The position numbers and the translations under genes are program-made. From assembly GCA_963924565.1 (NCBI GenBank), contig OZ004608.1, forward strand, positions 17,298,001-17,362,000: a DNA stretch of 64,000 nucleotides, given 5' to 3'. The stretch is from Ascidiella aspersa. Taxonomy: Eukaryota. This document shows positions 1,911 through 64,000 of this stretch, piece by piece; positions within the stretch are counted from its first letter, which is position 1, and every line of letters begins with the position of its first letter. Below the pieces are notes generated by a model that was not told the DNA's origin, ran no database searches, and saw only the letters and a program-made list of their open reading frames with translations.

Positions 1911-3369
1911 AGATGGAAAGTAAGGCCTGCACGTGGATTTATCCCTCGCCCAGTTTCCCGCTTAGCCACGTTCATATCTGCGCATTTCATGTAAAATCAA
2001 CATAAAATGTGGTCAGCCATGAAAAATTGTTCAAACGTGCAAAACTTCCGTCACATTTTTTTTAACGGTTTTCAGTATAGTCTCCATTTTCTGCTGTGCA
2101 AATTTTACAAATAACGGTATTACAGCCGTGCAATTTCAAGCTGCAAATAGTCTCTATCCAAAGTTTCCAATTTGGCTTTGCTCTAATAATTGTTTCAATG
2201 CTGTGATAGGAATCTACACTAGCGCCCATTTTCTTCATAAATAAACATTAACATTTTAATTTCTGTTTAGCTTTATGGAAGATGCTATTCACCCAGACAC
2301 AAAAGTAGTTCAAATCATCATATAATCACTAACAGGTGCAAGCTTAAAAGAGTTTAACCGGTTAGTTGTTAATAGGCCTTCCTGAGGATGAGGTTATTTA
2401 CCCGGCTAACGAAGTAATTTAAATCAATTTTAAATTTAAAACTATCACCACCCAAAACCAAACGCCAACCCCAACCTTAATCCAAATCAAGGTGCAAGTT
2501 AAAAGAGGGATCCAGTCAAATAGCCACTTCCTAACGTTTTTTAGGTTGTGTTACTTTTATAGGAAACTATGTCCAATATCTAATACATTTTTCGAGTTGA
2601 TAGCATTGCAGTGCCTTCCCATTAAAGATTTTTGGCATGCAAACCTTGTTATTCAGCAATTCCACTTACAATTGCAAAAATCTAAACTCTGAAAGAAACA
2701 AAAAACTTTTACTATATGTGTCCTTTAACATTTGCAAATTTAAATAAAAACACATGTGGAAATACGTCTGGAAAGTCACATGGATTAAAAACACAAGTAA
2801 CAGCTTATTATATATGCAGCAATGCTTCCAAACAATTATGGGTTTGTTACTGTAATTTTACAATCACCAAAATTGAAATCAAAAAAGTACAATCCTACAT
2901 AATATAGAATGATATAATTTGTTATACTGTCTTCTAAATGCAAAAAACTTCTGTAAGAGGCTTACCAATAAGTCAAAGTCAGATTGTTAAATAATCCCGA
3001 TATTTCTAGGCCTGACTGCATCCCATAATTTGTGACTGCTAAAGATTCGCCACAATTTTTTGGGGGGGCCAAAATTGGATGATATATATGACAAAAAGCG
3101 TATTTTTTGTTTCGTTAATTCCTTAGCCAAGTGATATTTTAGGCCAAATGACAGCACTGACCTGGTAAGAGCAAACATTCCACGCCAAAGATGGGAGTGA
3201 AATACAATCGGGTCTCTAGGTACCCTTGGACATCAGAAATGGCACCTAAGTCACAACGGTGCCGTAGCACCCTCGTTTGGGAACAACTGTTGTAAGCTGT
3301 TAAATTTACATTTATTTTTTCAAGATGTTATTATTAATAATTAAAGAGTTGCTTTAAAATTGTGATAAC

Positions 3370-19195
<15,826 letters not shown>

Positions 19196-22633: not shown

Positions 22634-25600
22634 TCAAGTTTTATTGTCTTTAAGTTGTGTATTCTTCTGGTTGATCTTTGCCATCTCCTCCATTTTCCGC
22701 CACCTGATCTGTGACCGCTCCCTCTGCTCTCGCTGCTGTTTCTTTTTCTGTTTAATATTGCTGAGCATTGTAGCGAATAACTTCTGGTTGACAGTCATGC
22801 AGTTGCGTATCACGTTGCTCGCCATGTTCACAATGGTTGGGTTCCAATGATAGTTCGAAACCTTTTAAAACACATTAAAAAGTTATATTATGCCCATAAT
22901 GTAGTCTTTTTCTTTCATTTAAATAATTCGTTTTACCAAATAACATATATGTTTTGGAACACAATACACGGGTTTCTTTAGTAATTTCAATAAAAATTAA
23001 AAAGCCATAATATTTGATAAAAGCGACATTTCGCAATTTACAGACGTTTCAGCAATAACTCATGCCATCATCAGTGTAAAAATCAAGTGAAGATAAAAGC
23101 GATAAAACGTAAAAAGAAAGGAAAAAAGGACAAAAAATGGCAGCGAAAAAAAGGCGATGAAATCTTTTTCACGAATGATCGAAATAAATTCGAAGGTGTC
23201 TTTGATGTTTCAAAGGTGAGATCATGGCAACCTTTGACGTTAAAAGTCTTTTTAGTAACATTCCAGTCGACCTGGTCATTAAACTCATTCTCGAACAAGT
23301 CTTCACAGATGGCGTGACTGATATTAGGGGACTTAACAAGCGCCGATAAAAAAGCTTTTGGAATGGACAACTAGGTGCACCACTCTTCAATTCAATGCAT
23401 CGTACTATAAACAATTGATGGCTTGCAATGGGGTCCCCCATTGCTCCACTGATGGCGGACGTATGTATGAACTTTGTAATAGATCAGGCCTTAAAGAAAA
23501 ACACCAAGAAAGACCAACCGGAAGTTCTATGTATAGGTATGTGGACGACCTTTCTCTTGTGTTTTCAAATTCAAATTCTTTAGAACGTTTTTTTCACCAT
23601 CATAAGCGCTATTCACCCTAACATTGCGTTCACCAAGGATTTGGATACAATCAACGGACTAACCTATTTAGATGTACTTTTACAACGCGGTAATCAAGGT
23701 TTACTTACCAAAGTTTACCGCAAACCGACTTACTCGGGCACTTATGCCAACTGGTCCAGTTTTGTTCCCTTTACGTACAAACGGAATTTAGCTAACGCTC
23801 TTCTAACCAGGGCGGAAACATCGCCAGTTCATATAAAATCATGCACGCTGAGTTTGCCACAATAAAGAACATGTTGTTGGGCAGTGGATATCCCAGTACA
23901 TTTGTAGACTGTGCTATTTCGCAACTCCTAAATAATCGCCACCACAAAAAGGATTCGAAAATTACGCCGGTTGAAGATGTGCGCTTTAGCGTAATGAAAC
24001 TTCCGTTTGTCGGACCTGTTTCACAGCACATAAGACGGGAACTGCAACGTTTTATTCAACGAAGCACAAACGACAAGGCCAAGTTAAGGTTTGTTCACGA
24101 AACGTCAAAGCTGGCCTCCTGGTTTGCCCTAAAAGATTCACCATCGCTACTCCACAAAACCAACGTGGTATACCGACTGCGATGCAGCTGCAACCAGACA
24201 TACATCGGCCAAACGCAACGCAACCTAAAGACCCGTATGAAAGAACACCAGTCGTCACCTAAGTCGGAAGTTTGTGCCCATTTGCTCACGAATCCTACAC
24301 ATAAGGTTAATTTCAACAAACCGGAAATGTTGAGTTCGCGGCATGACAAATATCGCCTTTTTTTGCTGGAATCGCTGATGATCCAACATCATAAACCAGA
24401 ACTCAACATAGATACAACCTCGGCATCTTTATATCTTTTGAACACCTAGCACTATGAACTGACCCATACATCGCCTTTTTTTCGCTGCCATTTTTTGTCC
24501 TTTTTTTCCTTTCTTTTTACGTTTTATCGCTTTTATCTTCACTTGATTTTTACACTGATGATGGCATGAGTTATTGCTGAAACGTCTGCAAATTGCGACA
24601 TATATGTTGATTATGAATTGCAAAGCCATAAAGGTCGAGTAGATCGACATCATCTTGGCTAAGACGTTTAGATACTAGCTTGTATCATCTCGAGTTAATA
24701 TGACTGAGAAGTAATTCAAGCAACGTCTTAATCAAGATGGTGTCGATCTACTCGACGTTTTTGGCTTTACAATTCATTATTAAGCTACATTAAAGACTCG
24801 TGCTTAGTGTACCCAAGAATATAGGTTGTTAGTATGATTTGAGGCTCACATTTAATTCTTGAAAAATATCCACTTATATTGCCAACTTTTTTGATTCGTC
24901 AATAAGTATACTACCGATGTATATGAGTTTTTGTGTAGTGTCAGTGGGGTCACCATATTTTGCCCAGTACCTTGAGGAGGCTGGGAAGCACAAGCGGATA
25001 GAGCTGGGATGAACTCACTTCCATTAAGCTGACAATGTACTCGTTGTCCCAGAAGTAAATCGCCCGCTCGGCTATCTAAAATTTAGTGTCAATTAAACAG
25101 TCTTCGTAACCGCAAAATACGCACTGTAAACAAATACATTATTTTTATATTATAATTTGATAGATGCAATATATACTTTTCTGCGCGTCATGCGAAGCTT
25201 TTGCTTTAATAGCTGCAAGCATTTTGCTTCATGATCAATAATATTAACTTCAGTTGTATGAGGATCTAGAAAGTTAGTTAAGGGCCATACAATTTTTAGA
25301 GATTACGTCACGAAGTTATAACGTGGCCGTTTAATTTAGAAAGAGACCAAATACCTCGAGGACACGATCAATATTCGGACATAACTGAAAAGAATGGCGT
25401 ATATCAAGATGATTTAGTTAGTTCACGAACGTTAGTCCAAGGTCACATAGCAAATGTTCAAAAAATAACTGTTTCAATCTCTAAATTTTATCGTTAATCG
25501 AGTATAGCTGGCCGCAAAAATTAAATTCGACCGTTATACTAGCGATCTTGTGTCCATATGTGTAAACAGATAACATTCGCGCAACGCGCAAAAAAAGTCC

Positions 25601-27681
25601 AATTGTTCTAAAAAAGAATCCCCAAAAACTTATTAAAAGGTGCTACACAATATTTGCCGCATATGATTAGCGCAAAGGGTTAAATTTTATTTTGCATTCA
25701 AAAGTTGTAAGTAAAATAGGCAAACAACTTCCTCTCTTGTTACACACTATAGTTTCATCGAGGCAGCAAACTTCTTTAAATTATTCAAGTTTGACGTCAT
25801 GTTTTCCATATTTGAAAATAATGTTATAGTCCGCCTAGGGGTATAGTGACTTAAGTCGAAGACTTCAGTCACTGTTTTGAAATGACTTGACTTATAAGCC
25901 TTTCGATAAAATCACTTGACTTGACTCAAGTCTTTTGGACAAATGACTTGACTTGGACTTAAGTTATTTAATCAAATGACTTGGGTTGAAATTGAGTGTT
26001 TTTATTTAACGTTTTACTATAAAATTAGGATTTATTAATTTTTGCACGTAAAACGATTAGATTGCTGCATGTTGTCTTTTTTCTATTCTCTAGTTGCGTT
26101 ATTGCATATTCGGACGATTTTACCAAATTTACAGTTTAACGTTTTGTAGTTAAATCGCGGTTTTGATTGGAGTTAACTTGTCGAATAATAACTTGATGGG
26201 ACTTGACTTGGGTAACTGATGACTTTGACTGGGACTTTAGTCATTTAAAAATGGATTATTTACAATTACAACACTGGATACCGGTTACCCCAAGAAAAAA
26301 TCTGAATCCGCCACGCGTGTCACCCAAACTTTTTTTTATAAAAGCGCTGGATCAATGTAAGAATGGCGATGCCGGACCGGTTAATTGAAAGACCGCCGGT
26401 CGTGCGAACTCCGAATTTCGAGTTTAATGCCGTAAGCCAACCCCTGTCGGGGCTTGATTGCTTCTAGTGCCTTCCCGCCAGAGATCTTTGGCGGCAATGC
26501 TTGCCCAAAAGCACGCCAGTGAGAAATCTGGCATGGAATTGGATTTTCCGTTGGATTTCACCCCCCAAAATTTTGGCGTAGGCTATATCTTTGGCGGCCA
26601 CAAATTATGGAATGCAGTCGCAGGTCTCGGGTTCGCCGACTTTGCACCTTAATCTATCTATAGAATTTAACTCAAAAAGGGTAGCCTACCGAGGCAACAT
26701 TACATACCTAACCTGAAAGTGTTCACTTTTGACGCATTCAGCGATCTTAATAAAAATGGCGCGTTGCACTTTTATGAATTCCGAAGGTTGCATGACGTCA
26801 ATAACCTCTTCAAGCTCACCGAGAAACATGAGTGATTTATTGGTAACTGTGCGGGGCCATCGTTTCAAAAATTTCGTAACAAACTCTTCAGTTAAACTTG
26901 GGTCTTTCTCAAGATACTGAACAACGCAGTAAACTAACTGCGCTTGAAAGTGATGTAGACTGCTTGCCGAATGCAGAGGTAACAAAATTTGGAACAAGAA
27001 CTGTCGGTGCTCTTTCTTGAGTGGGCATGCATAGCCATTTATAATGCTTCCTAGTACTTCGAGAATCTCGACAGCCCCTGGAAAATGTAAGTCCTCGTAC
27101 ATCATTTCCAGAAACTTATTGTTAATTTCAAAACGAATAAACGCGCGAAGTCCCAGAAACTTTGCGTAAATCCTGTGCAGCGAAGTTTTTAGACACTCTC
27201 TCTCATTTAGATCCTCACTTGCAAATCGGTTGATAAGGCTTGCGACAAAACTGTGATCAAGGAATTTTTTCGCCTCACTTGGCTGGAAGTCAGGCGACTC
27301 CAGAACACGGTGAAAAAAAGTGTAAACAAGCTGCAGGTGAGACCATCCTGGAACCTTAATGGGTTCGTCTTCATCTGGATCATAGCCGATATCTACTGGC
27401 GGAATCGCTTGAAACAGATTGTGAGAGATCATGGCAAACGCCATGGCGTATAGCGGCTCGATCAAAATTCCTCGACTATCTTCCATAAATTCGATAACCT
27501 CTTGGAGATAAATGCGTTTGAACTCCTTTTCTTTAAGTTGAGCTTGTGGATCTAGAAAGTTAAACGTATAACAACAGTAGCGAAGTTTCTTTGCAAATAG
27601 GTCAATTCTTACTCCGGGTTTTGCATTAGCTAGAAGTGGAAGAGGTGCCTTTAGTTTTGAGGTGCGTGCGTCAACCATCAT
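22634..27681 (-). CDS. PPP2R5: Serine/threonine protein phosphatase 2A regulatory subunit B' (B56/PR61) family, 3 exons, ~433 aa
   Basis: Exon 1 27681-26713 (LFAKKLRYCCYTFNF, WSHLQLVYTFF, SEDLNERECLKTSLHRIYAKFLGLRAFIR, LEVLGSIINGYACPLKKEH, QLVYCVVQYLEKDP, HFQ|gt). Exon 2 25075-24971 (IAERAIYFWDNEYIVSLM...LLK). Exon 3 22861-22634 (VSNYHWNPTI...MTVNQKLF...RWRKMEEMA...stop). All junctions are phase 0 GT-AG. Confidence 0.93.
23037..23080 (-). ncRNA. Minimal type-I hammerhead ribozyme in the inverted Penelope pLTR (5' copy)
   Basis: Minus strand reads TTTACA-CTGATGA-T-GGCA..TGCT-GAAAC-GTC-TGTAAA with a perfect 6-bp stem I. Confidence 0.82.
23160..24449 (+). pseudogene. Disrupted Penelope RT-GIY-YIG ORF
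   Basis: In-frame TAA near 23347 and several frameshifts split the RT across ORFs 23358, 23641 and 23841. The N-terminal part is missing. Confidence 0.85.
24549..24592 (+). ncRNA. Minimal type-I hammerhead ribozyme in the Penelope pLTR (3' copy)
   Basis: TTTACA-CTGATGA-T-GGCA[TGAGTTAT]TGCT-GAAAC-GTC-TGCAAA gives the core CUGAUGA/GAAA, stems I and II and a GUC cleavage triplet. One stem I mismatch in this copy. Confidence 0.8.
24614..24811. mobile_element. Palindromic non-autonomous element made of inverted PLE-type pLTRs (family copy 2, degenerate ribozyme core)
   Basis: AAAGCCATAAAGGTCGAGTAGATCGACATCATCTTG...CAAGATGGTGTCGATCTACTCGACGTTTTTGGCTTT. 24780-24811 matches the reverse complement of 7902-7935. 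Confidence 0.7.
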
Positions 27682-27866
27682 TAAACAATTTACCTTTGCA
27701 AATTTTACACATTTGAACCATTTTAAAATGTATTTTATACTGGCAATTCGTGTACTATGCCGTCATAAAACACGACTTGCACTGTTTTGTCATAAAACAA
27801 AACGACAAATATATTCTATAGCAGATTTAACAGACTTTAAAAACTTAAATGAATTATACAAAATTT

Positions 27867-49904: not shown

Positions 49905-51826
49905 TCACCATAGTGAGGGTTTGAAGCACTGCGGTCCTTCCAGTAATATTGGTATCCAACAGCATCTCCATCTTAAGCATTGCTCTCTACGGACGAAACA
50001 GGGTAGGCAATTAATAAGCCAACAGAGAACAATCTCTTATAGCTGGTTGCCATTTAGAGAAAAATCTTGAATGTTACACACGTTTTTTGTAAATAATTTG
50101 AATAATCATTGTTACTTCGGGTAAATATAGCAATGCACCCGAGCAAAATTTTATATCTTTTTTTTTTTATATAATTTTTCTCGTTTTTTCCATTTGAAAA
50201 GAATATTGTTTTCGTTATATGGTTAAATAGTTATTCTATAGGTCATTAGTTGATACCAGAAATACATACAATAGGCCTACACATGCTTAACAAGACAACA
50301 TTTGGGCGAAGATGACATAAAGTGATATATTTGTTACCTTGAACAGTCTGTATGTCCACAGTACTGTCTTTCAAATGGATTCACGCTATTGCAGCCTCTC
50401 ATCAACAGATTGGAATACAAAATGTGCATTCCTGGGTACCCAATTGGATAAACTAGAAATAACATAGCCATGTTTTATTTCTCTACTAACCAATATGCGC
50501 AGAAGGTTACCCATTTGTAAATATTGGCATCACCTTTAATATAACCTTACGCGGCTAAAACAGTTAGGCCTACTACACGCTACGTTTTTAATTTTGAAAT
50601 TGGTTCTGAGCAAGATTTCCCCTAAATTCAAGAAAATTTGCGGAAGCAATACAAAGACATGAATATTAATTGAATTCGAATTTATTAACGCCATTGTCTT
50701 TATTGTGTTGTGTTTACACTAAGATTACAAAACAACGAGTAAAGAGAATTGGGTCACCACCAAAGCTTTTTGGTTATATCTACGCTTAGAATTTGGGTCG
50801 CCGCGAAAAAAGGTTGAGAAACACTGGCTTAAATCCTATTTTTTCTAATTTATTGTTGAATACGTTGTAAACCAAGTGTTTACAGACCCTGCTTGAAATG
50901 TATCGAACCTTAAAGGGAATTTGCTGAGCGTATAAGAGCAGTTAATATTGGAAAGCTTGGTGCCTCTTACTTTTGCGTTTGAAGCATATTGGGGAACCAT
51001 AGTTATCCTCGTCGTAGCAACAACCAGCAGATTCGCATTGGCGGAGAGTCACGTATTTTAGGCCCTCCAGTAGCGGACACGCTTGGCGGCGCTCGGGCAT
51101 CACTTGGCATTCTCCGTGTGGACATCTCCCTAAAAAAACTTTCAAGATAACCTACCAAGAATAGAGTACATAAATACTGTCCCGAATTGGTTCTTATAAG
51201 CACAAACTTAAGTGTGTTTTGTTCCTGCAAAATTTTTTCTCAATCATTGCTAAATTATTTTCGTAATTGTGAATAAAGCTAATTATAACAATCAACGCAA
51301 GTAAATACTGTCCCGCACTAGTTCTTATAAGCACAAAGTTGGGTGTGTTTTGTTCCTGCAAAATATTTTCTGAATCATTGCTAAATTATTTTCGTAATTG
51401 TGAATAAAGCTAATTATAACAATCAACGCAAGTAAATACTGTCCCGCACTAGTTCTTATAAGCACAAAGTTGGGTGTGTTTTGTTCCTGCAAAATATTTT
51501 CTGAATCATTGCTAAATTATTTTCATAATTGTGATTAAAGCTAATTATAACAATCAACGCAGGTAGTTAATTAGTATCTCAACAAGGTCTGCGTAGTTCC
51601 ACGCTTCATATAATGGATAAATCGATTTTCACCATAAAATAAACACATATTTCCACCATAAAATAAACACCTTCCGGCAGGGCCAGCCCTTTGAAACACC
51701 AGGTGGTGTTGTAGTTTGAGTTGTCGAAGCAGCAGCCGCGAGATAAGCACTCGTCTCTCGAAGTTTCCCCGCGTGCACAATCGATTCTCTTCTGAATGGG
51801 CACTGTACATTGGTAGGCTTTGCACT
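49905..51826 (-). CDS. Secreted-type protein with three trefoil (P-type) domains; 5' coding exon not resolved
   Basis: Exons 51826-51671 (CTVPIQKRIDCARGETSRDECLSRGCCFDNSNYNTTWCF), 51129-50971 (CQVMPERRQAC...QCESAGCCYDEDNYGSPICF), 50452-50338 (CNSVNPFERQYCGHTDCS) and 49986-49905 (REQCLRWRCCWIP...PQCF...stop). Six-Cys trefoil spacing with CC; phases consistent. Confidence 0.85.
51171..51561. repeat. Three near-identical 131-bp tandem copies in a trefoil gene intron
   Basis: TAAATACTGTCCCG begins units at 51171, 51302 and 51433. Confidence 0.92.
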
Positions 51827-53532
51827 CTGCATTTGTATGACGTGTAATATGTTATTCGTTTCAAAATCATTAAACTTAAGCCATAAACAATTAAATATTT
51901 AGAAAGAAGTAAAAGTCTAGATTATGGCCTAGATCAGTGGTTTTCAGCCTTATTCACGTCACGGCGTTTTCCGTTTCGTAACATTGTCATTTTTTACCTC
52001 GCCGCGTACCTTCTTAAACCTTGTTACCTTGCGCAGTTTTACTAAAAAAATGTCAAACCACGTAAATTACTAATGCTGTTTAATAATGTGTCTGGTTTAC
52101 AGGTTAAATAATGATCCTAACTCCTCAAATAGAAAATAAAACTGTTTATTAGAACAGGTTGCAGCTTGCATTTTCCCTAACCAAAATTAAAATGTCTAAT
52201 TAAAAAAATAAATAATGATTGTTAAAATGCTCACCTGAAAGAGCTAAAGTTGCTTACCGACTAACTAAGGTTTATTCTAATTGCAACTAACGAATGTTTC
52301 TATTCTGCTATCCTTACTATACCTTATGTCTGGATTTATTGTACAATATTGCCGTCTTAACAACTGAAACGCATTTTCCAATAATCTTTTTCTTAACCGA
52401 TCAGCTGTTAACTTATAATTGAATTTTATATTTTGTGCGTTTAAAAATATCTCTCACATTTTCCAAATATCTTACCTCGTTTTTCTAGAACAAGTTTGCC
52501 AACCTTGTCGCTTAGGCTATGTCGCGGAATTAACAACAGGTAGACCAAGACAACCCATTCAGGCGTACTAGCGGGTTTACACATTTATTTGCTTATAGGT
52601 TATATAGCAACTAAACCTTTTTAGGGTATATAGCAATCACGGTTCTTTCGTAACATGACTGTAGGTTCTGGTCGCACACTTGTCCAAACAAAAGAGAAAC
52701 AAGCGACTTTCTAAAACTTGTTTTTATGATCGCCCTGGAATCGAGTTGTTGTCAAATTAGTATAAACCAAGATAATTGCATTGCAATTTGTACATTATTG
52801 TTTTCACTGGGAGATGGCTCGCGGGCACGATTAAAAGCAATTTAATCTTACATGTCACTCGTGATATATACGCGTTAATCTTTTTGAACTGCTCTTTCAT
52901 ATATTTATATAACAAAAACATTTCTTCAATTTGTTTTGTAAAATTATTTTAATATTTGCGCATCGTATAGCATATACATCAAACCCTTTTTGCAGAAAAA
53001 CTTTAATCATATTAGCATTGGTAGGCTATTTTGTATTAACAAAATACTCCAGGCAGCACAATTTTTACAACGTACATTTGTAGGCTAAGGCTAAACAATT
53101 AACCGCTAGAACATTGTAACCGTCTATTCTAATTCAAAGATACATCAATGAAGAGTTTGGTGATAAAATGATTCCCATTTTGAAAATAGTCGACCTATAT
53201 CATATAACGTTTTCGGTTTTGACTTTATCAAATAAATATAATACTGTGTAAGAAAGACATGTTCGTAGGAAATCCAACACTACCGCAAGTTCGTGGTCAT
53301 CAGTTCAATCAAAGATGGAAAAATATATTACGACAAGCCTGAAACGTTTTTGAAACGTGCCTCTGGCTTTTTAATCAAACACCTCGTGCTGCCGCCAGTC
53401 ACCAATCAACATTCCAGCATTTCGGAAGGAACGTCAGAACAGGGTTTCTGTTTTTGTAAGCTCACTGCTTCATTCCTATGTTTATTTCTGTTGTGTGGTG
53501 GTGCATTAAATTTTCTTTTTTTAGTTTGAATT

Positions 53533-56500
53533 ATGTTTTTTCGGTGAGTTTTTAGTTTTCTTACGTAGACGTAGGGAAAATAACGTTTATAGTGATTTAA
53601 TGTCAACTTATGAAAGCCAATTTTAAATAGTTAAATAAATAAAAAAAAAACTTTAAAAAGAAAATAAAAAAAACTAAATTACGTTTTAATTCCTCCTCAG
53701 GTTAATTTCTTTTTTGGTACTTCTGGAAACTTTTTTTCGAGCAAACGCACAAGGTATTTTAAATAATTTTAAGTTACAACTAAGAAAATTTTTTCTCTTA
53801 CATCAACTTAAAACGTATAGTCCGCTAAAGATAATCCCAAACTGTTAAACTATTTTCTGAGTTGAAGTACCGGTGATATACAGACAATTGCAAATAAATC
53901 GGCCACCTTTGTCGTTTTAGCATGCCCAGCCTTACGACCTGGCGTCCGTTGCGACAGACGCTGTTTCAGCAATATTTTCTGCAATAGCCCGATGTCGTGC
54001 ATATGCACTACTACATGTGACGGATTTACCTGTACCAATCCAAGAAACATCTGTAAGACCCCATATGTGTTGAGAGTTGACTTGTGTAATCCATTATTGC
54101 GATGGCGAGCAAAAAACGTTGTCTTACAGCACGATTTGCTCTTGATTGCTTTAATACAGTTCTGGTCGGCAAACTGTGGTTGGGCCGCGAGTTACTTGTG
54201 GTTGGGCCGCGAGTTACTTTTGAATAGCTTATTGTAATCATGTAGTTGTGAGCCGCGTAATAGCCGTATTGCATTTTATTCTAAAAGTTTGTGGGTCTGA
54301 ATTTTTATATCGTCTCGATGTGGTTCAGACCCAAGTGCCACGCGTTGTCATTAGAACCTGTCGAACTATTTTTTTCCAACTTTAAATAGCCTATATGTTA
54401 GTGCAAAATTTTTTGCGATCCGCGCGTATATTTTTCGTGTTTTCAATGTTCACATTATGGCATGGCAGTGTTTTCGGGCCACTGTTTTCGTAGTGGTTTT
54501 ACATAGTGGGCATTCAATAGCTCTAAAAAGAGTACTTTAGACCGCGACAAATGTTTGCCGACCACTGCTTAGAGAACCTTACCACCACATTGAACAAATG
54601 GCCACGTATTAACACTATGCTACATTTTAGTGTGCGAGGACTTGCCTGCGATTAACAATGGCCGACTTGTCCCAGTGCTTAACCACCGTTCCCCAGGCGA
54701 TGATATTACGTTTGAATGCAACGTCGGCTATCAACTCAGCTTTACTTCCATTCGTGTATGTCGTGTGGACGGTAGTTGGAGTGGTTCTTCTCCAGTCTGT
54801 TCTGGTATTTACCCTATAGTTATTTAAGTTTTCGATGTTACGAGTAAAAACATGCAAATAAATGTGGCTTAATTTTTTAATACGTCAAAAAACGCTTTAT
54901 TTTGTTTAATTATTGACCATTATTGAAATAGCCGTAAGTCCTCTTGAATTTTCAAACAGCCGGCAAATGTCCTGATTTTGGTGAGTTTGAAAATGGATTC
55001 TTTTCATTGAGCAACGGATATGATGTGGGTAGTGTGGCAAGCTACAGTTGCAACAAGGGCTACAAACTTAAAGGTTCCGAGGTCGTAACGTGTGGTTCGG
55101 ATTTTAATTGGAGCCATCCCACTCCCTCTTGTTCGTCTGGCCTAGAAGGTACGAATCGCAGTTTCACCGAGTAAATCTTTTAATAGAAATTTACTGCTCC
55201 GATACAGGTCTGCGAAGTTAATTATCCCCAATTATCCCCAATTCCCAACGGCCCAAGAGTCTGGCAATTGTACTTGAAACAGCAAACCAGTTATAGGGGG
55301 TCAAAACTCGGCCACCCACAATCCGTGGGTGGAAAAACAGACTTCGTGTCTAGTCCCTGTCTCTAGCCCTGCTGGGTGTCACAACTCTCTCTAGCATAGA
55401 GTGTGGCCTTGTCAGAATATTGCTATCTAACACCAAATAAACAAGACTCGGTCTGCGTCAGTGGACTCTTGTCTAAATTCGATGTTATTTAAATTCAAGG
55501 AAAACATATTTTTTTTTTAGTAAAACAAGTTCTATTTGTCTACGTTTGCTTTTTATAATTGTTATTGGTATTGTGTAAGGTTTTTACATTTATTCAGTGA
55601 CTGAATCTCGTACAATGAACTTCACATTTAACCAATTTATTTCTCATGTATAGATTTTTGCAACCAGCGACCCCCGAGCCTGGTAAACGGCAAATATCAA
55701 TTTGTCGTAGTCATACCACCAGGAGCGGACGCCTCCTTTGCACCCAGCGATATTCGATGGCGCATCGGAGATAAAATGAAGTACAGCTGTAACCGAGGCT
55801 TCAGTCTGAATACCAGCAATCCAGTCTGGACTTGCGTGGAAAAAGACACTTGGAGTGGTCAGGCGATGTCGTGTCTCCGTAAGCAATCAGCATTAACACA
55901 GACAACCTATATTTATGCATTTGTGTTTACAACAAATAAGTGTATGCGAGTTTTCAATCCGGACGCTTACCGGCTTTCGACATTTCATGGCAACACCATT
56001 TTTATTACCCATGTATGGAAAATTGTACACTAGACAGTTACTTAATTTCAGCATGCACTCCATTGCCAAGTGATGCCGACTGCGGAACGCCATGCCAGGC
56101 TAGCTACGAATGCGGCGCCAACAGTATCTGTTCGTGCTATGCACGTAGATGTGGAGAGGCCTCTTGCTTTTTACCCAGCTGTAAGTTGTTATTGCACAAA
56201 TTCCAATACTAGAGGAATGTATGTTCTAATGTCGTTATTTTAAACATGTTGTGATAAAGCCCATTGGAAGTAGTATTTTCACCAATAACGGCATTCATAT
56301 AATAGTATACTGGTTCCATCGAAAAGACTATTACCGAAATGAATTGATCAAATCAGGGATCTAGTAGAAGCATGCAACTGTTGGAAAATATTATCAATTA
56401 ACATTCAGCCCAATGTCCCGAGCTGCAAAACATTCCAAACGGAAAGGTTCGCTCGGTGGGAAGAGGAGAGGGCGCACTTGCGTCATATGAGTGCGAGAAG

Positions 56501-59500
56501 GGTTACGCGCTCGTTGGAAGCAAGACACGTCGCTGTCTTAAAGAAGACTGGATTTGGAGTGGAAGCAAGCCAAGATGTGCACAGAAAACCAAAGGTAAAC
56601 ATATTTTTTTTATTTTTAAGTAAGGGTGGTAGTGTTTTCTATCGTGCTCTGGATGATAGTTGTTCGAATTGCTCGTTGGTTATAGTAAAAATTTTCCTCG
56701 CGCGCGAGATCTAAATAAGTTTGGTTGTACACTCTCGCGAAGTAAAGCTTTTTTCAGAAGAAAAAATAAAATTAAATGGTAATCCCCGAACTACCTTCGA
56801 TAAAACTATGGATAACACCTGTTTTTTAGTTACTATGGGCAATGCCCGATCGGTGCTCTAAACATTTCATCGCACGTCCCGTAGACAAACCCTGGTTGAC
56901 TGTGTCAGGTTTTGCTTGTTTTTTTTAACAGAATTTTGCGAAAATCCACCCAACCTTGTCAACGGAATATACAGACAAGTTAGCATCAAGCCCTTGCCAT
57001 CCCGCCCGCCAAACGGAGCATCAGCTGCTGAAAGTATCAAGATCAAGTGGTCTATAGGAGACACAGTGCAGTATCGCTGCAACGCAGGCTTTAATCTGAA
57101 CTCCACCAACCCAATATGGACTTGCATTGAAGCAAACACATGGTCGGGTGCGCCCATGTCGTGCTTCGGTAAGTACAAAGGATTTTCGACCACAACTGAC
57201 AGTGAAGTAGGCTGTTATGCATTTAAAAAGTAGTTAATATAGCGGACGTGCAACATTTAACATCCTGCTCATCCGCCAAGACTGAGCCGGACTAAAATGT
57301 TTTTGCTATTGGATTCAGCTTGTACTCCTCTTCCTGAAAATTTACGATGCGGAAGAACTTGCGATGACAGTTCTGGTTGTAATCAGAATGAAATCTGCTC
57401 CTGCCACCAACGAAAATGCGGCGGCAGAACTTGTTTCGTACCTCGTAAGCTTGGCTTTGGTATTTTTTGTAAAACTATTACATTTGGCCAGTGGCTTTCC
57501 TAGGGTGAGTACTATAAATATTTGGTGTAATTAACTAAAATGCAAGAAGTGTTGCCGCACTGCATTGCATTTGTTTAACTGCATTAAAGATGCAGATTTT
57601 GATTAAAATGTATCAACCCGTCGAAGGTGACATATTTGTTCTATTCTTGTTGTTCGCAGCAGCACCCCTCAAATGTCCTCAACCTACATCAATTAGGAAT
57701 GGAGGCGTGCGGCACAACGGTCTTGTGCAGGGAAGTGCGGCCGTTTACTTTTGTCATTCCTCTTTTACAATGGTGGGTATTCACACCCGCATCTGCCTGG
57801 CAGACCTCACCTGGAGCGGCGAACAACCGAGATGCGATGCTAAAGGTTAGTAGGGATTTTCCTCGATAATACTACTAATGACGGGGCTCGGGCTGCTGCG
57901 CCAAAATATGCAAACCCTAATTAAGCTGTAATATTTAAAGGTTTTTGCGGGTCACCGCCACCGGTTCCGAATGGTTGGTACAAACTGGTTCAAGATCAAT
58001 TCGGTAATTCCGTTGGCGAAAACGCTGAAAACTACCAACGCTATGCAGTTGGCGACAAGTTTCAGTACGGATGTTCGAGAGGATACCAACTGAGCTCTTC
58101 TGTTTCGACGAAAACTTGTTTATCAGGAGGCACCTGGTCTGGAGACAACCTACAATGTATAAGTGGGTATCACGTTTCACAAAACACAAGACTTTTCGCA
58201 TTTTTTTCAATCTCTACCTCAAACATTCAAAACCATTAAAATAAATCGCCTTATTTTGATGATACAGAAACAAGATTAGAGTGTGAGAGGCTGACGGATA
58301 TAGCAAACGGAGTAATCACTCTGTTGGACGGCACCATTACACCCGGTTCCACTGTTCGCTACGATTGCGTCAGAGGGTTCCAGATGGTTGGAGATAATTT
58401 CAGAACTTGTCAGCGCGATGGGAGCTGGAGCGGGATTGAACCGACTTGTGTTAAAGTTAAAGGTACCGTAATTATTACTGTCAAAATTGTTGAGTTACGA
58501 AAGAACACTGCACACTGTACGAAAAGCTTGTGTTGGTTTGTTGACATCGTGAACGTTTGACTGAAGCTACATAATCCGAAAAACCCACATTAATAAAATA
58601 TATATTAACTTCTGACCCTATAAAACATATATCAACGTTCACATCGAAAACTATATGCTTTATGTGGACTTCGAAGTTAAATCTAGCGCAAGAAATATTA
58701 ACTTAGACCGTTTTACATTGTTTAATCTTAATTGTCCCATATATTGCTACATTCATAACACTACCATAATTATATAATCTTAATAAATCTCAGAAGCTTA
58801 AAATTGGCGAAAAATGCGTATCTTAAATCCCCGTTTTTCTCAGGTTTTTGTTGGTCTCCACCATCCATCTACAACGGCTGGTATAAGCTAGTTGGGGATC
58901 AGTCAAGCGGCACCATCGGCGAAAACGCAGATATCAACAAACGTTATGCTGTGGGTGACGTTTTTCAGTACGGCTGCATCAGAGGTTACCGTCTCAACTC
59001 TGACATCACGAAAAAGAAGTGTTTGAACGACGGCAACTGGGATGGGGTATCACTTCAGTGTATAAGTAAGAACATAGTATCAAACACTCTGCATTAGTTG
59101 GTAACATTGACACGTACGCTTTAGAAACGAGAGAGAAATGCCATAAACTTTCCATGGCTATATTGAACGGAGTGGCCCAAAAGGACAACGTCGTCGGACC
59201 CGGTTCGATCGTCAGCTATCTCTGCAACAGAGGTTACACTTTGGTTGGAGATCGTCAGAGAACTTGTCAGAACGACGGGACTTGGAGCGGAAGGGAACCT
59301 TCTTGTTTGAGATCACAAGGTTCGTTAAGAGAGCCAATTTAATTCCCGGCAATCGACCCAGTTGTATGTAGGCTACTCTTGCTGTTCAAAGAAACACAAT
59401 TTAATCTTCAATCTATTTTAGCCACACCGTTTTGCTGGTCACCACCGCCAATTATCAACGGCTGGTATAAATTAGTTGGGGACCTGTCCGCATCAAACGC

Positions 59501-62500
59501 AGCCGGTAACAACGCTGAAGTAAACGTACGCTACACCGTTGGCGACGTATTCCAATATGGCTGTAAAGCGGGATTCGTCCTAACGGAGTCCGCCAACGAC
59601 AAGAAAACTTGTTTACCGGATGGCACGTGGTCCGGCAGTCTAGTGCAATGTAGAGGTGAATTCATTTATCCATCCTGTATAATAATACTGTTGCAAGTTT
59701 ATCCGTTAGGTAGTGCGGTGTGGCATGGTAAATAAAAGGCTAACATGTTGATGTCTCTTAAAATTGTTAATCCTTGAAACTAAAAGCGTTAGTCGAAAAC
59801 GCCAATTCTGCTTGTTGCAGAAGTTCTGGACTGTGGTTTTGCTGGCCTGCTGTCGAACGGGCATTCCACGGTTATTGGCTGGGGCCCTGGCAGTGTGGCA
59901 TCGTACACTTGCCACCCCGGATACAACTTGGTTGGCAGCAGCCGGCGCACGTGCCAGATTGATGGAAATTATGACGGGATTCAGCCGACATGTGTCCCCA
60001 TTGGTAAGAATGTTATGAATCACTGAAAAACAATTTTTGTTTTGGCGACGCAAATAATTTTTCCGTTCCTTATACCATATTTTTAAATCGCCACAAAACG
60101 AAAGCCTATATGTTTCACTTCAATAAATAATCCTATTATTCAGGGCCACAAACTTTCTGCCCGGTTCCCGAGCCGCCGAATAACGGTTTTCTGTCGCTCT
60201 GTCGTTCCTGCTCGCTCAACTCCGGATCGCAGCCCAGAACCGACGTTCTGTCCTATGCCTGTGCTTTTGGGTACACTTTGGTAGGTCCGAGAAAGAGGAC
60301 TTGCATGCCACAAACCGGCAAGTGGAACTACGCTGCGCCAGTGTGCGTTTTCTGTAAGAAACAAACTTACCATGGTCAATTTTAATTTAACTGTGCCTTG
60401 TGCCGCTAGCCTTGATAATCTACAGCATTTTAAACCAGTTATTTTATAGTGGGAGAAGTCCTAGTAATTAGTCGTTGTCATACCGTCCCAATTAGAGCAA
60501 TATTTAGACTAATAATAGTCTTTAGTCAAGTCATAATGTAGCTTAGCTTTATTATTGTTTCCTTGTCGCAGCCGGTTGCACAGTGAGCTTCGAAATCCCG
60601 AACGGGTTTGTGGTTTCGAACTCTTTGCTACCTAACGCTCAAATTGAGATTCGGTGCGACCGAGGCTTCCAACTGGACAAAGTGGATCCCGTTTATTGTG
60701 AGGGAAACCAAGTCTGGAGCACTGCGCTACCGAACTGCGTGCCACAAACAGGTGAGAAAAAACGTTAATTGTTTTAGTTATGCCTGGTAGGTATTGAGTG
60801 GTGTGGGTCACTTTATAAATGATGTGACATATCCATCCTGTTCTTTTTTCCTAAGCTTCCAACAATCCCTGGACTTTATCCATCAGCGACAAAAGTTTCT
60901 TGTTCGGCAACGAGCTTCTGTCTTTCTATGACAGCGAAAGATTTTGCTTTAGCAAAGGAGGCTGGCTAGCGACATCTGGTGTCCGTGAAGAGAAACTTTA
61001 CAAGTGAGCTGTCTATGTGTATTTGCAAAGTAACACCAAAATATAAACACTGCTGATATACAGCGTTTCACACCGCGTTTCTTGGTCGTGTGTACCTCTT
61101 CTTTGAAAGCAATCTTTTTTTTAGAAAACTTAAAGACTATATGACGCCCGGCCATTCTTATTGGTTTGGGCTGACCGACCACGCCGAAGAATCCTTCTGG
61201 TTGTGGAAGACTGGCGACGTTTTGCATCCAGAAATGTACGATCCGGAATTACTGGAGGCGCTTGGAACGTAAGTAAAACGTACCATTGGGAATGTTTACT
61301 AGCCTACTGCCAGTGTTCTGGAACACATACTTTTTATATCTAGCATATGTGATTTGTTATACCGTGATTTGTTCGACTCCTAACACGTTATCCTTAAAGT
61401 TTGAAGGCTTTTACTTCTGACGACAACAACGATTGTGCGTTCGTGTCAAACGATTTTCAGCGTACTTGGAACGACGACGATTGTCAGAAGGGACGGCACT
61501 ACGCTTTATGCGAAAAAGGTGGTTAACAAATTGAAAACCAACAATTGTGACCACTTACAGTGAAGCACAAGCACAATTTTGACGACTTTAACATCTTGCG
61601 GTTCATGTGGCTGCCATAGCAATTAAAACACTATTCCAATATTTAACCCTAGAGTAGTTTATCTATCCCATCTTTTTACTGTTTATAATCAAACACTATG
61701 TCCTCTCTAATAGCAACTTTAAACAACTGGGTCGCCACTGGCAGCGGAATCGAGCAGATGACGATTCCCGGCCAAATCCAATGGATGGAGGCACTGGCAA
61801 GATGTCGTGCATACGGGGGTTGGCTTCTCATGAAACAACAAATACAGATTGTTACCAGGTAATTGTTGAATTTAACAACTACTGTATGTAGCACATAACC
61901 TTAATACCTTAATTTTTTGAACATGTAGAATGGTAGCTGTTATCAGGGCCAGGCTTGCTCCCCAAAACCACGAATCAAAAAGCAACCAAGAGTTGATACT
62001 TAACGACGCTGTTTGCGAACGAGGGGGTAGGTATGTCTTCATATTTTTCGAAAAAAAGTATGTTATATCTTTTACGACCAGTAGTTTTAAAATCATTCAT
62101 TATTGTCATGTTGCCCTCTTTTTTCTTTACTACTTGTAGGTGAACATCAGTATTCTCAAGAAAACAATATGGGTGAAGCTCACGCCAACCCCGACCAACA
62201 TGGTAAGTTCCGCAGTTTTAACGCTTATATTTTTGAAATGCCGCTAAGCGTGCATAACATTGACAGCTTCTGGTTCTTCAACACCGACTGTAACGCTAAC
62301 GCTAACGGACGCGGCAATCGTTACAACAACAACGCCTTTCCATAAAGTTTGTGGCCCGAGGTGCGACACTAATCAGGATTGTGGGTTTACGCAAAAGTGC
62401 CTCTGCGATGGACCATGCTCAGCTTCTTGTCTTCTCATCACCCATCCCACTAGCGGTAAGATACTTTCAACTAGCAGATAAATTACCCAAATATTCGGCG

Positions 62501-64000
62501 TAAAATCGCGAAGCATAATGTCCAATATTAGAATTAAAAAAACTACATTTTAGTGTGTTGCCCTCGTTCTTTACCACGGCGGACATGCGGGCCTGCCTGT
62601 GTCCACGCCGGACAGTGCAGGGCGGGTCAGCATTGTTCCTGCGACGGAAGATGCGGACTCTCTTGTCGGACGCTGATTCCATCAATAGGAGGAAGAATGG
62701 AACAGCCGGGAACATCAACTGGTGAGTTAAGATCTGTCATCAATGAAACTTGGTTCAAGTTCCACAATTTGCTTCAACAACCAGATCTTACTGATGTAGT
62801 AACAGAAGGGCAACGAAAGGCTGACAGCACAACGCAAAGTTCCTATTCTACCGAGGGCGTAAAAGGCGATGCTGAAATTTCCTATTCTACCAAAGGCTCG
62901 GGTTCTACCAAGGGCGCTAAAGGATCGCAAATTTCCTTTTCTACCAAGGGCGCAAAAGGCTTGGTTTCTATCAAAGTCTTTAAAGGCGATGATGAAATTT
63001 CCTATTCTACCAACGCCGTAAAAGGCTCGGTTTCTATCAAAGGCTTTAAAGGCGATGATGAAATTTCCTCTTCTACCAAGGGCGCAAAAGGCCCTGATTC
63101 TACCAAGGGCGCTAAAGGATCGCAATTTTCCTATTCTACCAACGCCGCAAAAGGCTCGGTTTCTACCAAAGGCTTTAAAGGCGATGATGAAATTTCCTAT
63201 TCTACCAAGGCCGCAAAAAGCCGTGATTCTACCAAGGGCGCTAAAGGATCGCAATTTTCCTATTCTACCAACGCCGCAAAAGGCTCGGTTTCTACCAAAG
63301 GCTTAAAAGGCGATGATGAAATTTCCTATTCTACCAAGGCCGCAAAGGGCCCTGATTCTACCAAGGGCGCTAAAGGATCGCAATTTTCCTATTCTACCAA
63401 CGCCGCAAAAGGCTCGGTTTCTACCAAAGGCTTTAAAGGCGATGATGAAATTTCCTATTCTACCAAGGGCGCAAAGGGCCCTGATTTTACCAAAGGCGCT
63501 AAAGGATCGGAAAGTTCCTATTCTACCAAGGGCGCAAAAGGCTCGGTTTCTACCAAAGGCTTTAAAGGCGATGATGAAATTTCCTATTCTACCAAGGGCG
63601 CAAAGGGCCCTGATTTTACCAAAGGCGCTAAAGGATCGGAAAGTTTCTATTCTACGAAGGGCGCAAAAGGCTCTGTTTCTACCAAAGGCTTTAAAGGCGA
63701 TGCTGAAATTTCCTTTTCTACCAAGGGCGCTAAAGGCTCGCAGATTTCCTATTCCACCAAGGGCGCTAAAGGATCGGAAAGTTCAACAGAAGACGGAGTT
63801 TCTTCGCAACAAGTACCGTTAACTTCTGTTACAACTGAAGTTGGACCAGAATATTCTATTTCGGGATCGGGAGTGTCGAGCGCAGGTGTACTTGGATCAA
63901 CCGTGGTTCAAGATAATAATGGTAAGAGCACGGTCTTTGACGCATTATTTTTTTCGTTGCGAAATCGAAATTCTTCTTAGCAGGGTATCAATGTCCAATG
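53533..64000 (+). CDS. Large secreted mosaic protein: signal peptide, WAP-like x5, CCP/sushi x14, C-type lectin x1 plus a truncated second, Lys/Gly/Ser repeat; 3' end beyond window (LEV-9/Hasp-like architecture)
   Basis: Signal peptide MFFRLISFLVLLETFFRANAQ: 53533-53543, 53701-53753. WAP: 53921-54052. CCP: 54631-54804, 54960-55148, 55654-55878. WAP: 56052-56180. CCP: 56409-56594, 56932-57168. WAP: 57319-57444. CCP: 57660-57845, 57941-58162, 58268-58462, 58844-59065, 59125-59319, 59422-59655, 59821-60003, 60144-60353, 60572-60751. CTLD (YWFGLTD..WND..C...ALCEK): 60856-61003, 61125-61268, 61400-61518. Truncated CTLD: 61714-61858, 61929-62026. Linker: 62140-62202. WAP: 62267-62455, 62554-62721. 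Repeat exon: 62785-63921. Next exon from ~63984. Domain exons are symmetric phase 1. Confidence 0.88.
54157..54567. mobile_element. hAT-like MITE
   Basis: CAGT..GGTCGGCAAAC/GTTTGCCGACCACTG ends; subterminal GGGCCGCG motifs. Confidence 0.65.
62845..63790 (+). repeat. Coding tandem repeat, 129-nt / 43-aa higher-order unit built from STKxxKG subunits
   Basis: GGCGATGATGAAATTTCC recurs at about 63051, 63180, 63309, 63438 and 63567 (129-nt period). Unit: STKGAKGSQFSY-STNAAKGSV-STKGFKGDDEISY-STKAAKGPD. Confidence 0.95.

What the first reader, a model, noticed from the sequence alone, without database searches (positions are those of the whole stretch)
53533..62721. LEV-9/Hasp-like WAP-CCP extracellular scaffold with added lectin domains
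Seen: signal peptide, then WAP-like, 3 CCP, WAP-like, 2 CCP, WAP-like, 9 CCP, CTLD, truncated CTLD, and 2 WAP-like modules. The WAP-like modules have C-x-C in place of the usual CC (KCLCDGPCSASC, HCSCDGRCGLSC). Established: an N-terminal WAP followed by CCP arrays defines C. elegans LEV-9 and Drosophila Hasp, secreted organisers of cholinergic synapses. I recall their WAP having this CLCDG.CG.SC form, which needs confirming. Inference: this is a lineage-specific expanded relative, possibly a synaptic-cleft, tunic or immune matrix protein. I do not recognise this full architecture.
Basis: partly seen in the sequence, partly recalled or inferred. Interest (0 to 1): 0.7.

Follow-up and report, generated by a model that had tools for sequence, protein, structure and literature searches.

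The report
ZP matrix protein with LEV-9-like head
The gene runs on past the point where it was first read, through a spliced tail with a membrane anchor, and likely encodes one 2,250-residue sea-squirt protein whose long LEV-9-like arm sits on an egg-coat-type ZP unit that is predicted to be cut free and build matrix filaments, rather than a synapse organiser.

Summary
The module list is largely right: 14 of 14 CCP exons pass Pfam, five C-x-C WAP-like modules and one C-type lectin domain are present; the 'truncated CTLD' is unsupported. The gene does not end at 62721. The frame stays open into a Ser/Gly/Lys repeat exon and eight further exons beyond the window: a 7-Cys EGF, a divergent ZP module, a furin site, a transmembrane helix and a stop. 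RNA reads show 8 of 8 predicted joints of that tail. The joints upstream of it were not tested. The tail is homologous to a 15-member EGF-ZP family of this genome whose layout matches ascidian egg-coat proteins (HrVC120 type); none of the 15 has WAP or CCP nearby. The C-x-C WAP is the LEV-9/Hasp-family form, but it is common in this genome, and other loci fit LEV-9/Hasp better. Best reading: an exon-shuffled type I membrane ZP precursor of about 2,252 aa, likely shed by furin into a matrix filament that displays the WAP/CCP/lectin arm. Tissue and ligand are unknown. It fails the LEV-9/Hasp membership test. A new variant of a known kind; moderate interest.

The parts
53533..53753 (+). Signal peptide, exons 1-2 (53533-53543, 53701-53753), aa 1-21
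   Evidence: hydrophobic core score 2.49; no signal-peptide predictor run
53921..54052 (+). WAP-like 1 (C-x-C, 8 Cys, most divergent)
   Evidence: rank 43 of 55 against a LEV-9-family WAP profile
54631..55878 (+). CCP1-3, one exon each
   Evidence: Pfam Sushi over cut-off
56052..56180 (+). WAP-like 2
   Evidence: 51% identical to WAP-like 3
56409..57168 (+). CCP4-5
57319..57444 (+). WAP-like 3
57660..60751 (+). CCP6-14; short CCPs alternate with long-insert CCPs (c3, c5, c7, c9, c11), built by internal duplication
   Evidence: c7/c9/c11 58-61% identical, c3/c5 53%
60856..61518 (+). C-type lectin domain, 3 exons; four Cys, WFGL and WND kept, no EPN or QPD
   Evidence: E 3e-10 to own-genome lectin profile; weak Pfam
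61714..62202 (+). Possible reduced lectin-like module (2 exons, 2 Cys) and a 63-nt linker exon
   Evidence: frame and phases only; no profile support
62249..62455 (+). WAP-like 4 with Thr-rich insert; acceptor 62249 or 62267
   Evidence: Pfam WAP E 0.006; acceptor scores 3.0 and 1.6
62554..62721 (+). WAP-like 5 (9 Cys)
   Evidence: Pfam WAP E 0.02; strong donor at 62721
62785..63921 (+). Cys-free Ser/Gly/Lys/Thr stalk exon, 43-aa unit x 6.6; acceptor uncertain (62785, 62800, 62806, 62896, all in frame)
   Evidence: 3' end and donor seen in RNA
63922..64000 (+). Start of the 96-nt intron that leads out of the window. The gene goes on in L002 (L002 position + 62000 = window scale): 7-Cys EGF 2018-2140; ZP-N with four Cys, 3 exons 2297-2975; divergent ZP-C, 2 exons 3057-3717; furin consensus RAKR (aa 2158-2161) and EHP-like strand 3788-3899; membrane helix (aa 2210-2228), short tail and stop 4304-4485
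   Evidence: model; 8 of 8 joints in RNA; EGF shared with 14 loci; ZP-N profiles E 7e-6 and 2e-11; ZP-C Pfam E 0.015; alignment to paralog

Best explanation
The locus likely encodes one type I membrane ZP-module precursor of about 2,252 aa that is predicted to be cut by furin and likely joins an extracellular matrix filament, holding out a long WAP/CCP/lectin arm on a repeat stalk. Shown: the exon chain reads without a stop; the stalk-EGF-ZP-furin-membrane tail is transcribed and spliced as modelled; the tail is homologous to this genome's EGF-ZP family. Inferred: head and tail are one mRNA; cleavage at RAKR releases a 232 kDa ectodomain and frees the EHP strand; ZP-N/ZP-C then polymerise, alone or with partner ZP proteins; the arm binds cells, glycans or proteases. 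Origin inferred: exon shuffling joined a WAP-CCP-CTLD head and an EGF-ZP-membrane cassette through phase-1 introns. Site of action is a guess: egg coat or gonad about one in two given this mechanism, another epithelial surface otherwise.
For: 36 exons, 35 GT..AG introns, one terminal stop, one membrane helix, one furin site. 8 of 8 tail joints in RNA run X3 (4-28 reads each, one strand, absent from two other runs' contigs), with no RNA depth at four listed positions of the stalk-EGF intron. WAP5 and the stalk lie in one open frame; no in-frame Met with a hydrophobic stretch between 60751 and 64020 (best 1.47 against 2.49). Tail aligns to a paralog whose ZP-N passes Pfam: 110 of 383 identical, ZP-N score 118 against 26 +/- 4.5 (0 of 1000 shuffles), 3 of 7 introns at matching place and phase. 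14 of 14 other loci with this EGF have a ZP-N hit beside it. Six indels fall in non-coding DNA, one 3-nt deletion in coding DNA. ZP activation by tail cleavage: PMC7456536 and PMC3543715 (passages).
Against: No RNA was laid on exons 1-27, so the head-tail link is not shown. ZP-C is weak: below the Pfam cut-off, 2 of 1000 shuffles reach its pair score, the family's second ZP-C profile misses it, the own-genome first ZP-C profile misses it, and it lacks Cys6/Cys8 and CysA/CysB as endoglin does (PMC7456536 passage). The Atlas put the first ZP-N exon with an unrelated enzyme family at 0.95. No ortholog was found in another species. Tissue unknown; 175 reads in 1,177 million letters.
Confidence: 0.6

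Rival explanations
1. One gene, but a non-polymerising surface receptor or adhesion protein: the ZP module serves as a dimerising base (endoglin/betaglycan style, recalled) and the arm works like a selectin or complement-receptor rod.
For: ZP-C keeps only a Cys5/Cys7-type pair, the loss pattern described for endoglin (PMC7456536); 14 CCP plus CTLD plus membrane helix is a receptor-like layout.
Against: Furin site and EHP-like strand are kept in register with the paralog; the tail is short with no recognised motif; the same paper reports the argument that cysteine pattern does not predict polymerisation.
Confidence: 0.2
2. Two products: a secreted WAP-CCP-CTLD protein that ends before the stalk (alternative donor or intronic polyadenylation) and a ZP protein that is a separate or minor transcript.
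For: Two other WAP-CCP-CTLD loci show no ZP hit. Donor 62030 scores higher than 62026 (8.2 against 6.8) and would put a stop in the next exon; ATTAAA at 62533 follows a stop at the read-through end of the WAP4 exon. Upstream joints untested.
Against: The ZP part would have no signal peptide: the only hydrophobic Met frame in register with WAP4 (62200) is closed by a stop. WAP, CCP, stalk and EGF exons are all phase 1-1 and WAP5 plus stalk is one open frame.
Confidence: 0.12
3. A LEV-9/Hasp co-ortholog that clusters acetylcholine receptors at synapses, with the ZP tail as a tether.
For: Same WAP form and WAP-then-CCP start; several of its CCPs rank high against LEV-9-family CCP profiles (rank 3 of 119, 5 of 136, 5 of 131).
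Against: Its first WAP ranks 43 of 55 and first CCP 25 of 119; other loci rank above. Best head alignments to family members are 23-30% identical. LEV-9 is described as a secreted WAP plus 8 CCP protein and Hasp as one WAP plus up to 17 CCP, with no other modules named (PMC9083331). Trees do not place it with them (unresolved).
Confidence: 0.08

Closest known systems
Ascidian vitelline-coat EGF-ZP proteins (HrVC120/VC70, CiVC57, HrVLP-1/2)
   Same: Incomplete EGF directly ahead of a C-terminal ZP module in HrVC120, membrane helix in CiVC57 (PMC9265791, PMC8849226, passages); the own-genome family with that layout is the tail's nearest kin found.
   Different: Head is WAP/CCP/CTLD plus a repeat stalk, not EGF repeats or VWD; ZP-C much more divergent. 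No sequence comparison with HrVC120 or CiVC57 was made, so the label rests on layout.
LEV-9 / Hasp family
   Same: C-x-C WAP followed by a CCP array after a signal peptide.
   Different: Five WAPs, lectin domain, stalk, EGF, ZP, furin site and membrane helix; better-fitting loci exist elsewhere in the genome.
UMODL1 / olfactorin
   Same: WAP plus EGF plus ZP plus membrane helix in one matrix protein (PMC8874799, passages).
   Different: Uses EMI, FNIII and SEA; no CCP or CTLD listed. Similar by layout, not shown to be related.
Tunicate factor-B-like proteins with C-x-C WAP (Clavelina P0004, P0005)
   Same: Interleaved C-x-C WAP and CCP modules.
   Different: They continue into VWA and trypsin domains; none here.

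Membership tests
LEV-9/Hasp | N-terminal WAP of C-x-C type followed by CCPs | tested here: met
   the first WAP is highly divergent (6.8 bits)
LEV-9/Hasp | One WAP plus CCPs only | tested here: not met
   five WAPs, CTLD, stalk, EGF, ZP; family layout from PMC9083331
LEV-9/Hasp | Secreted, no membrane helix | tested here: not met
   membrane exon spliced to the ZP exons in RNA; depends on the untested head-tail link
LEV-9/Hasp | Groups with family members in a tree | tested here: inconclusive
   long branches, no supported set with family members
LEV-9/Hasp | Sits in cholinergic clefts and clusters receptors | not testable with these tools
   no tissue or localisation data
ZP-module proteins | ZP-N with four cysteines | tested here: met
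   Cys 1887, 1936, 1956, 1995 align with the paralog; profile E 2e-11; direct Pfam ZP-N hit absent exon by exon
ZP-module proteins | ZP-C domain | tested here: inconclusive
   Pfam E 0.015, under cut-off; own profile E 3e-5; Atlas leads 0.84-0.87; model of one exon unusable
ZP-module proteins | Cys5-7, Cys6-8, CysA-B in ZP-C | tested here: not met
   only a Cys5/Cys7-type pair; such losses occur within the family (PMC7456536)
ZP-module proteins | Furin site, EHP strand, membrane helix in order | tested here: met
   the EHP assignment is by alignment and recalled consensus
ZP-module proteins | Polymerises after cleavage | not testable with these tools
   needs recombinant protein
Ascidian vitelline-coat EGF-ZP proteins | Incomplete EGF directly before ZP | tested here: met
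   7-Cys EGF shared with 14 loci, all beside ZP-N; 'incomplete EGF' wording from PMC9265791, its identity with this EGF is inferred
Ascidian vitelline-coat EGF-ZP proteins | EGF-repeat head | tested here: not met
Ascidian vitelline-coat EGF-ZP proteins | Gonad expression, presence in the egg coat | not testable with these tools
   tissue of run X3 not given
WAP four-disulfide core | WAP fold | tested here: inconclusive
   nawaprin best sequence hit, E 0.066; model pLDDT 74; WAPs and knottin-like peptides tie at Z 2-3
Ca-dependent C-type lectin | EPN or QPD sugar site | tested here: not met
   absent at the aligned place in CTLD1; domain itself met

The most novel reading that the evidence does not exclude
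A chimeric gene grafts the WAP-CCP head of the LEV-9/Hasp receptor-clustering family onto the polymerising cassette of ascidian egg-coat proteins, giving a self-assembling filament that arrays a 14-CCP, lectin-bearing arm, for sperm or self/non-self recognition in the egg coat or for anchoring receptors under a sensory or epithelial matrix.
Probability: 0.2. Interest if true: 0.7.

Novelty: new variant of a known kind. Interest (0 to 1): 0.45.

Why it matters
If head and tail are one protein, it is a WAP/CCP/lectin-ZP combination that my searches did not meet: 0 of 45 C-x-C WAP proteins carried a ZP family (limited to 2,000 aa), 0 of 15 own-genome EGF-ZP loci had WAP or CCP nearby, and no listing from paper searches or 114 named it (listings, plus passages of the papers cited). 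It would be a clear case of exon shuffling between two gene families, and a candidate recognition protein in ascidian coats. It also shows that the C-x-C WAP is a mobile module in tunicates and should not be used alone to call LEV-9 orthologs. Mosaic matrix proteins are common in tunicates, which limits the surprise.

Tried and rejected
Homolog searches with the first ZP-C exon: none among 52 candidates; 3 hits in 1.84 billion representatives, all unrelated repeat proteins. The five-module WAP alignment found none among 58 candidates. Searches covered only proteins up to 2,000 aa, so a full-length ortholog of 2,252 aa could not appear. PDB sequence search with the ZP-C exon: 1 chance hit. AlphaFold on that exon alone: pLDDT 52, not used. 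Fold searches with the WAP5 model: no match at E 0.001, best Z 3.1. Atlas on the first ZP-N exon gave an RNA phosphotransferase family; rejected as a fragment artefact because the exon aligns to the ZP family. First ZP-N profile from six Pfam hits missed the model. A weak ZP-C hit beside a WAP-CCP locus on C9 fell in a VWA/trypsin gene. One search used wrong paralog exon ends and was replaced. Trees of WAP (50 rows) and WAP+CCP (47 rows) were unresolved. No RNA holder was listed for the stretch; the run used was added by species label. The primary LEV-9, Hasp, HrVC70 and Ciona egg-coat papers were not held; their figures and supplements may bear on family placement. Earlier findings of the scan: nothing.
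Full report
Observation. The window is G000:C2:17298001-17362000 of a 309 Mb genome. A tunicate is inferred: the best named hits are Clavelina proteins. All 14 CCP exons pass the Pfam Sushi cut-off; 2 of 5 WAP-like exons reach Pfam WAP weakly and 3 of 5 not at all. All five have the C-x-C spacing. The first lectin domain scores E 3e-10 against a profile of 15 lectin exons of this genome and lacks EPN/QPD; the second, 'truncated' one gets no hit. The CCP array grew by internal duplication of a short plus long-insert pair (inferred).

The gene continues. The WAP5 exon lies in a 480-codon open frame that runs into a 129-nt repeat of 6.6 copies, a Cys-free stalk rich in Ser, Gly, Lys and Thr. Beyond the window I modelled eight more exons: 7-Cys EGF, three ZP-N exons, two ZP-C exons, an exon with RAKR and an EHP-like strand, and a membrane exon with the stop. 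The 36-exon model gives 2,252 aa, one stop, one membrane helix and one furin consensus. RNA run X3, about 6 in 100 of it read, shows 8 of 8 predicted joints with 4-28 reads each on one strand; the two other runs show none, and X3 has no depth at four listed positions in the intron after the stalk, so read-through to the stop at 63980 is not seen. RNA was laid on this tail only: the 27 joints upstream, including WAP5 to stalk, remain untested. The link is argued from the open frame, a strong donor at 62721 with several in-frame acceptors, and the lack of a second signal peptide. Among 35 listed single-letter differences in the three runs, 16 are coding (7 silent, 9 not, one of them beside the 3-nt deletion) and 19 non-coding.

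What the tail is. Direct evidence for ZP is weak exon by exon: Pfam ZP-C E 0.015 for 1 of 5 exons, Atlas leads under 0.9, one contrary Atlas result. Homology to a paralog settles ZP-N. A gene at C7:12.377 Mb has EGF repeats, the same 7-Cys EGF, a ZP-N over the Pfam cut-off, RRRR and a hydrophobic C-terminal stretch. It aligns to the tail at 110 of 383 positions; ZP-N scores 118 against 26 +/- 4.5 (0 of 1000 shuffles), ZP-C 45 against 28 +/- 4 (2 of 1000); 3 of 7 introns match. Fourteen other loci share the EGF and all 14 have a ZP-N hit within about 3 kb. Profiles grown from the paralog over the 15 family loci score the model at E 7e-6 and 2e-11 for ZP-N, 1e-3 for the first ZP-C part and not at all for the second (E-values for one sequence). 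None of the 15 loci has a WAP or CCP hit in the flanks fetched; heads seen are EGF repeats, short Cys modules or a VWA-like stretch read by eye (7 of 15 inspected). This layout matches HrVC120 (12 EGF, one incomplete EGF, ZP) and CiVC57 (PMC9265791, PMC8849226, passages). That label is by layout only.

What the head is. A profile of 13 C-x-C WAPs found 45 proteins, all with C-x-C: nematode, arthropod, mollusc and coral one-WAP CCP arrays, several named lev-9-like, fish and frog beta-2-glycoprotein-like proteins, Clavelina factor-B-like proteins, and short unnamed fragments. None lists a ZP family, but only proteins up to 2,000 aa were searched. In this genome 11 of the 12 loci inspected, out of 21 Pfam WAP matches, have C-x-C. 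They include a one-WAP plus about 20 CCP locus on C9, two WAP-CCP-CTLD loci, and WAP-CCP loci of which one was read by eye as VWA plus trypsin. In nine such regions no supported ZP hit followed a CCP array closely; one ZP-C gene lies 41 kb downstream of a WAP-CCP locus on C2 and was not examined for linkage. Against LEV-9-family profiles the first WAP here ranks 43 of 55 and the first CCP 25 of 119, although some internal CCPs rank in the top five. Trees are unresolved. LEV-9 is described as a secreted WAP plus eight CCP protein and Hasp as one WAP plus up to 17 CCP (PMC9083331, passages). So the head is made of LEV-9/Hasp-type parts, but the gene fails membership.

Mechanism. By the rules known for ZP proteins, cleavage of the C-terminal tail frees the ectodomain and lets the module polymerise (PMC7456536, PMC3543715, passages). 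Applied here (inference): furin cuts at RAKR, a 232 kDa ectodomain joins a filament, and the stalk lifts the WAP/CCP/lectin arm off it. Against this, ZP-C has lost two of the three usual disulfides, as endoglin has, so a non-polymerising receptor remains possible (0.2). A secreted form that ends before the stalk (0.12) and a synaptic role (0.08) are the other rivals. Tissue and ligand are unknown.

Novelty. Every module is known, and WAP with ZP occurs in UMODL1 (PMC8874799, passages). Oikopleura house proteins use CCP, lectin and ZP in separate proteins in the passages read (PMC3390340). The joined WAP/CCP/CTLD-ZP layout was not met or in paper searches, which cover open papers only. Verdict: real, extended and reinterpreted; a new variant of a known kind; interest 0.45.

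Noticed in passing
window 50945-51851, minus strand: Two trefoil-domain exons (Pfam E 4e-13, 2e-8) of a gene pointing away from this one, with a 131-nt x 3 tandem repeat between them.
   Followed up: no
window 10599-17622, plus strand: JmjC, PHD and Tudor exons, a KDM4-like gene (the name is my reading).
   Followed up: no
window 22637-27762 minus; 23796-24446 plus: PP2A B56 exons with a GIY-YIG frame between them, probably a mobile element in an intron.
   Followed up: no
window 62200-62247: A 15-codon hydrophobic Met frame in register with the WAP4 exon but closed by a stop at the acceptor; chance, or a relic of a separate start.
   Followed up: partly
L019-L026 (C9:16.65-16.73 Mb) and L050-L052 (C9:21.24-21.26 Mb): A one-WAP plus about 20 CCP locus, a strong LEV-9/Hasp candidate, and two WAP-CCP-CTLD loci.
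   Followed up: partly
P0004, P0005; L033-L034 (C9:20.60 Mb): Tunicate factor-B-like proteins carry C-x-C WAP modules. I recall these extra modules being described as LDLR-type; not found in print here.
   Followed up: partly
C1:32.61-32.65 Mb and C1:25.23 Mb (L127-L136): Clusters of four and two EGF-ZP genes of the egg-coat-like family.
   Followed up: partly
G000 C2:5.9-7.6 Mb: A very large cluster of C-type lectin exons, most of the 150 rows listed lying on C2.
   Followed up: no
G000 C8:9.284-9.306 Mb (L053-L056): Four WAP exons at a 7.2-kb period with equal scores, likely a recent tandem repeat.
   Followed up: no
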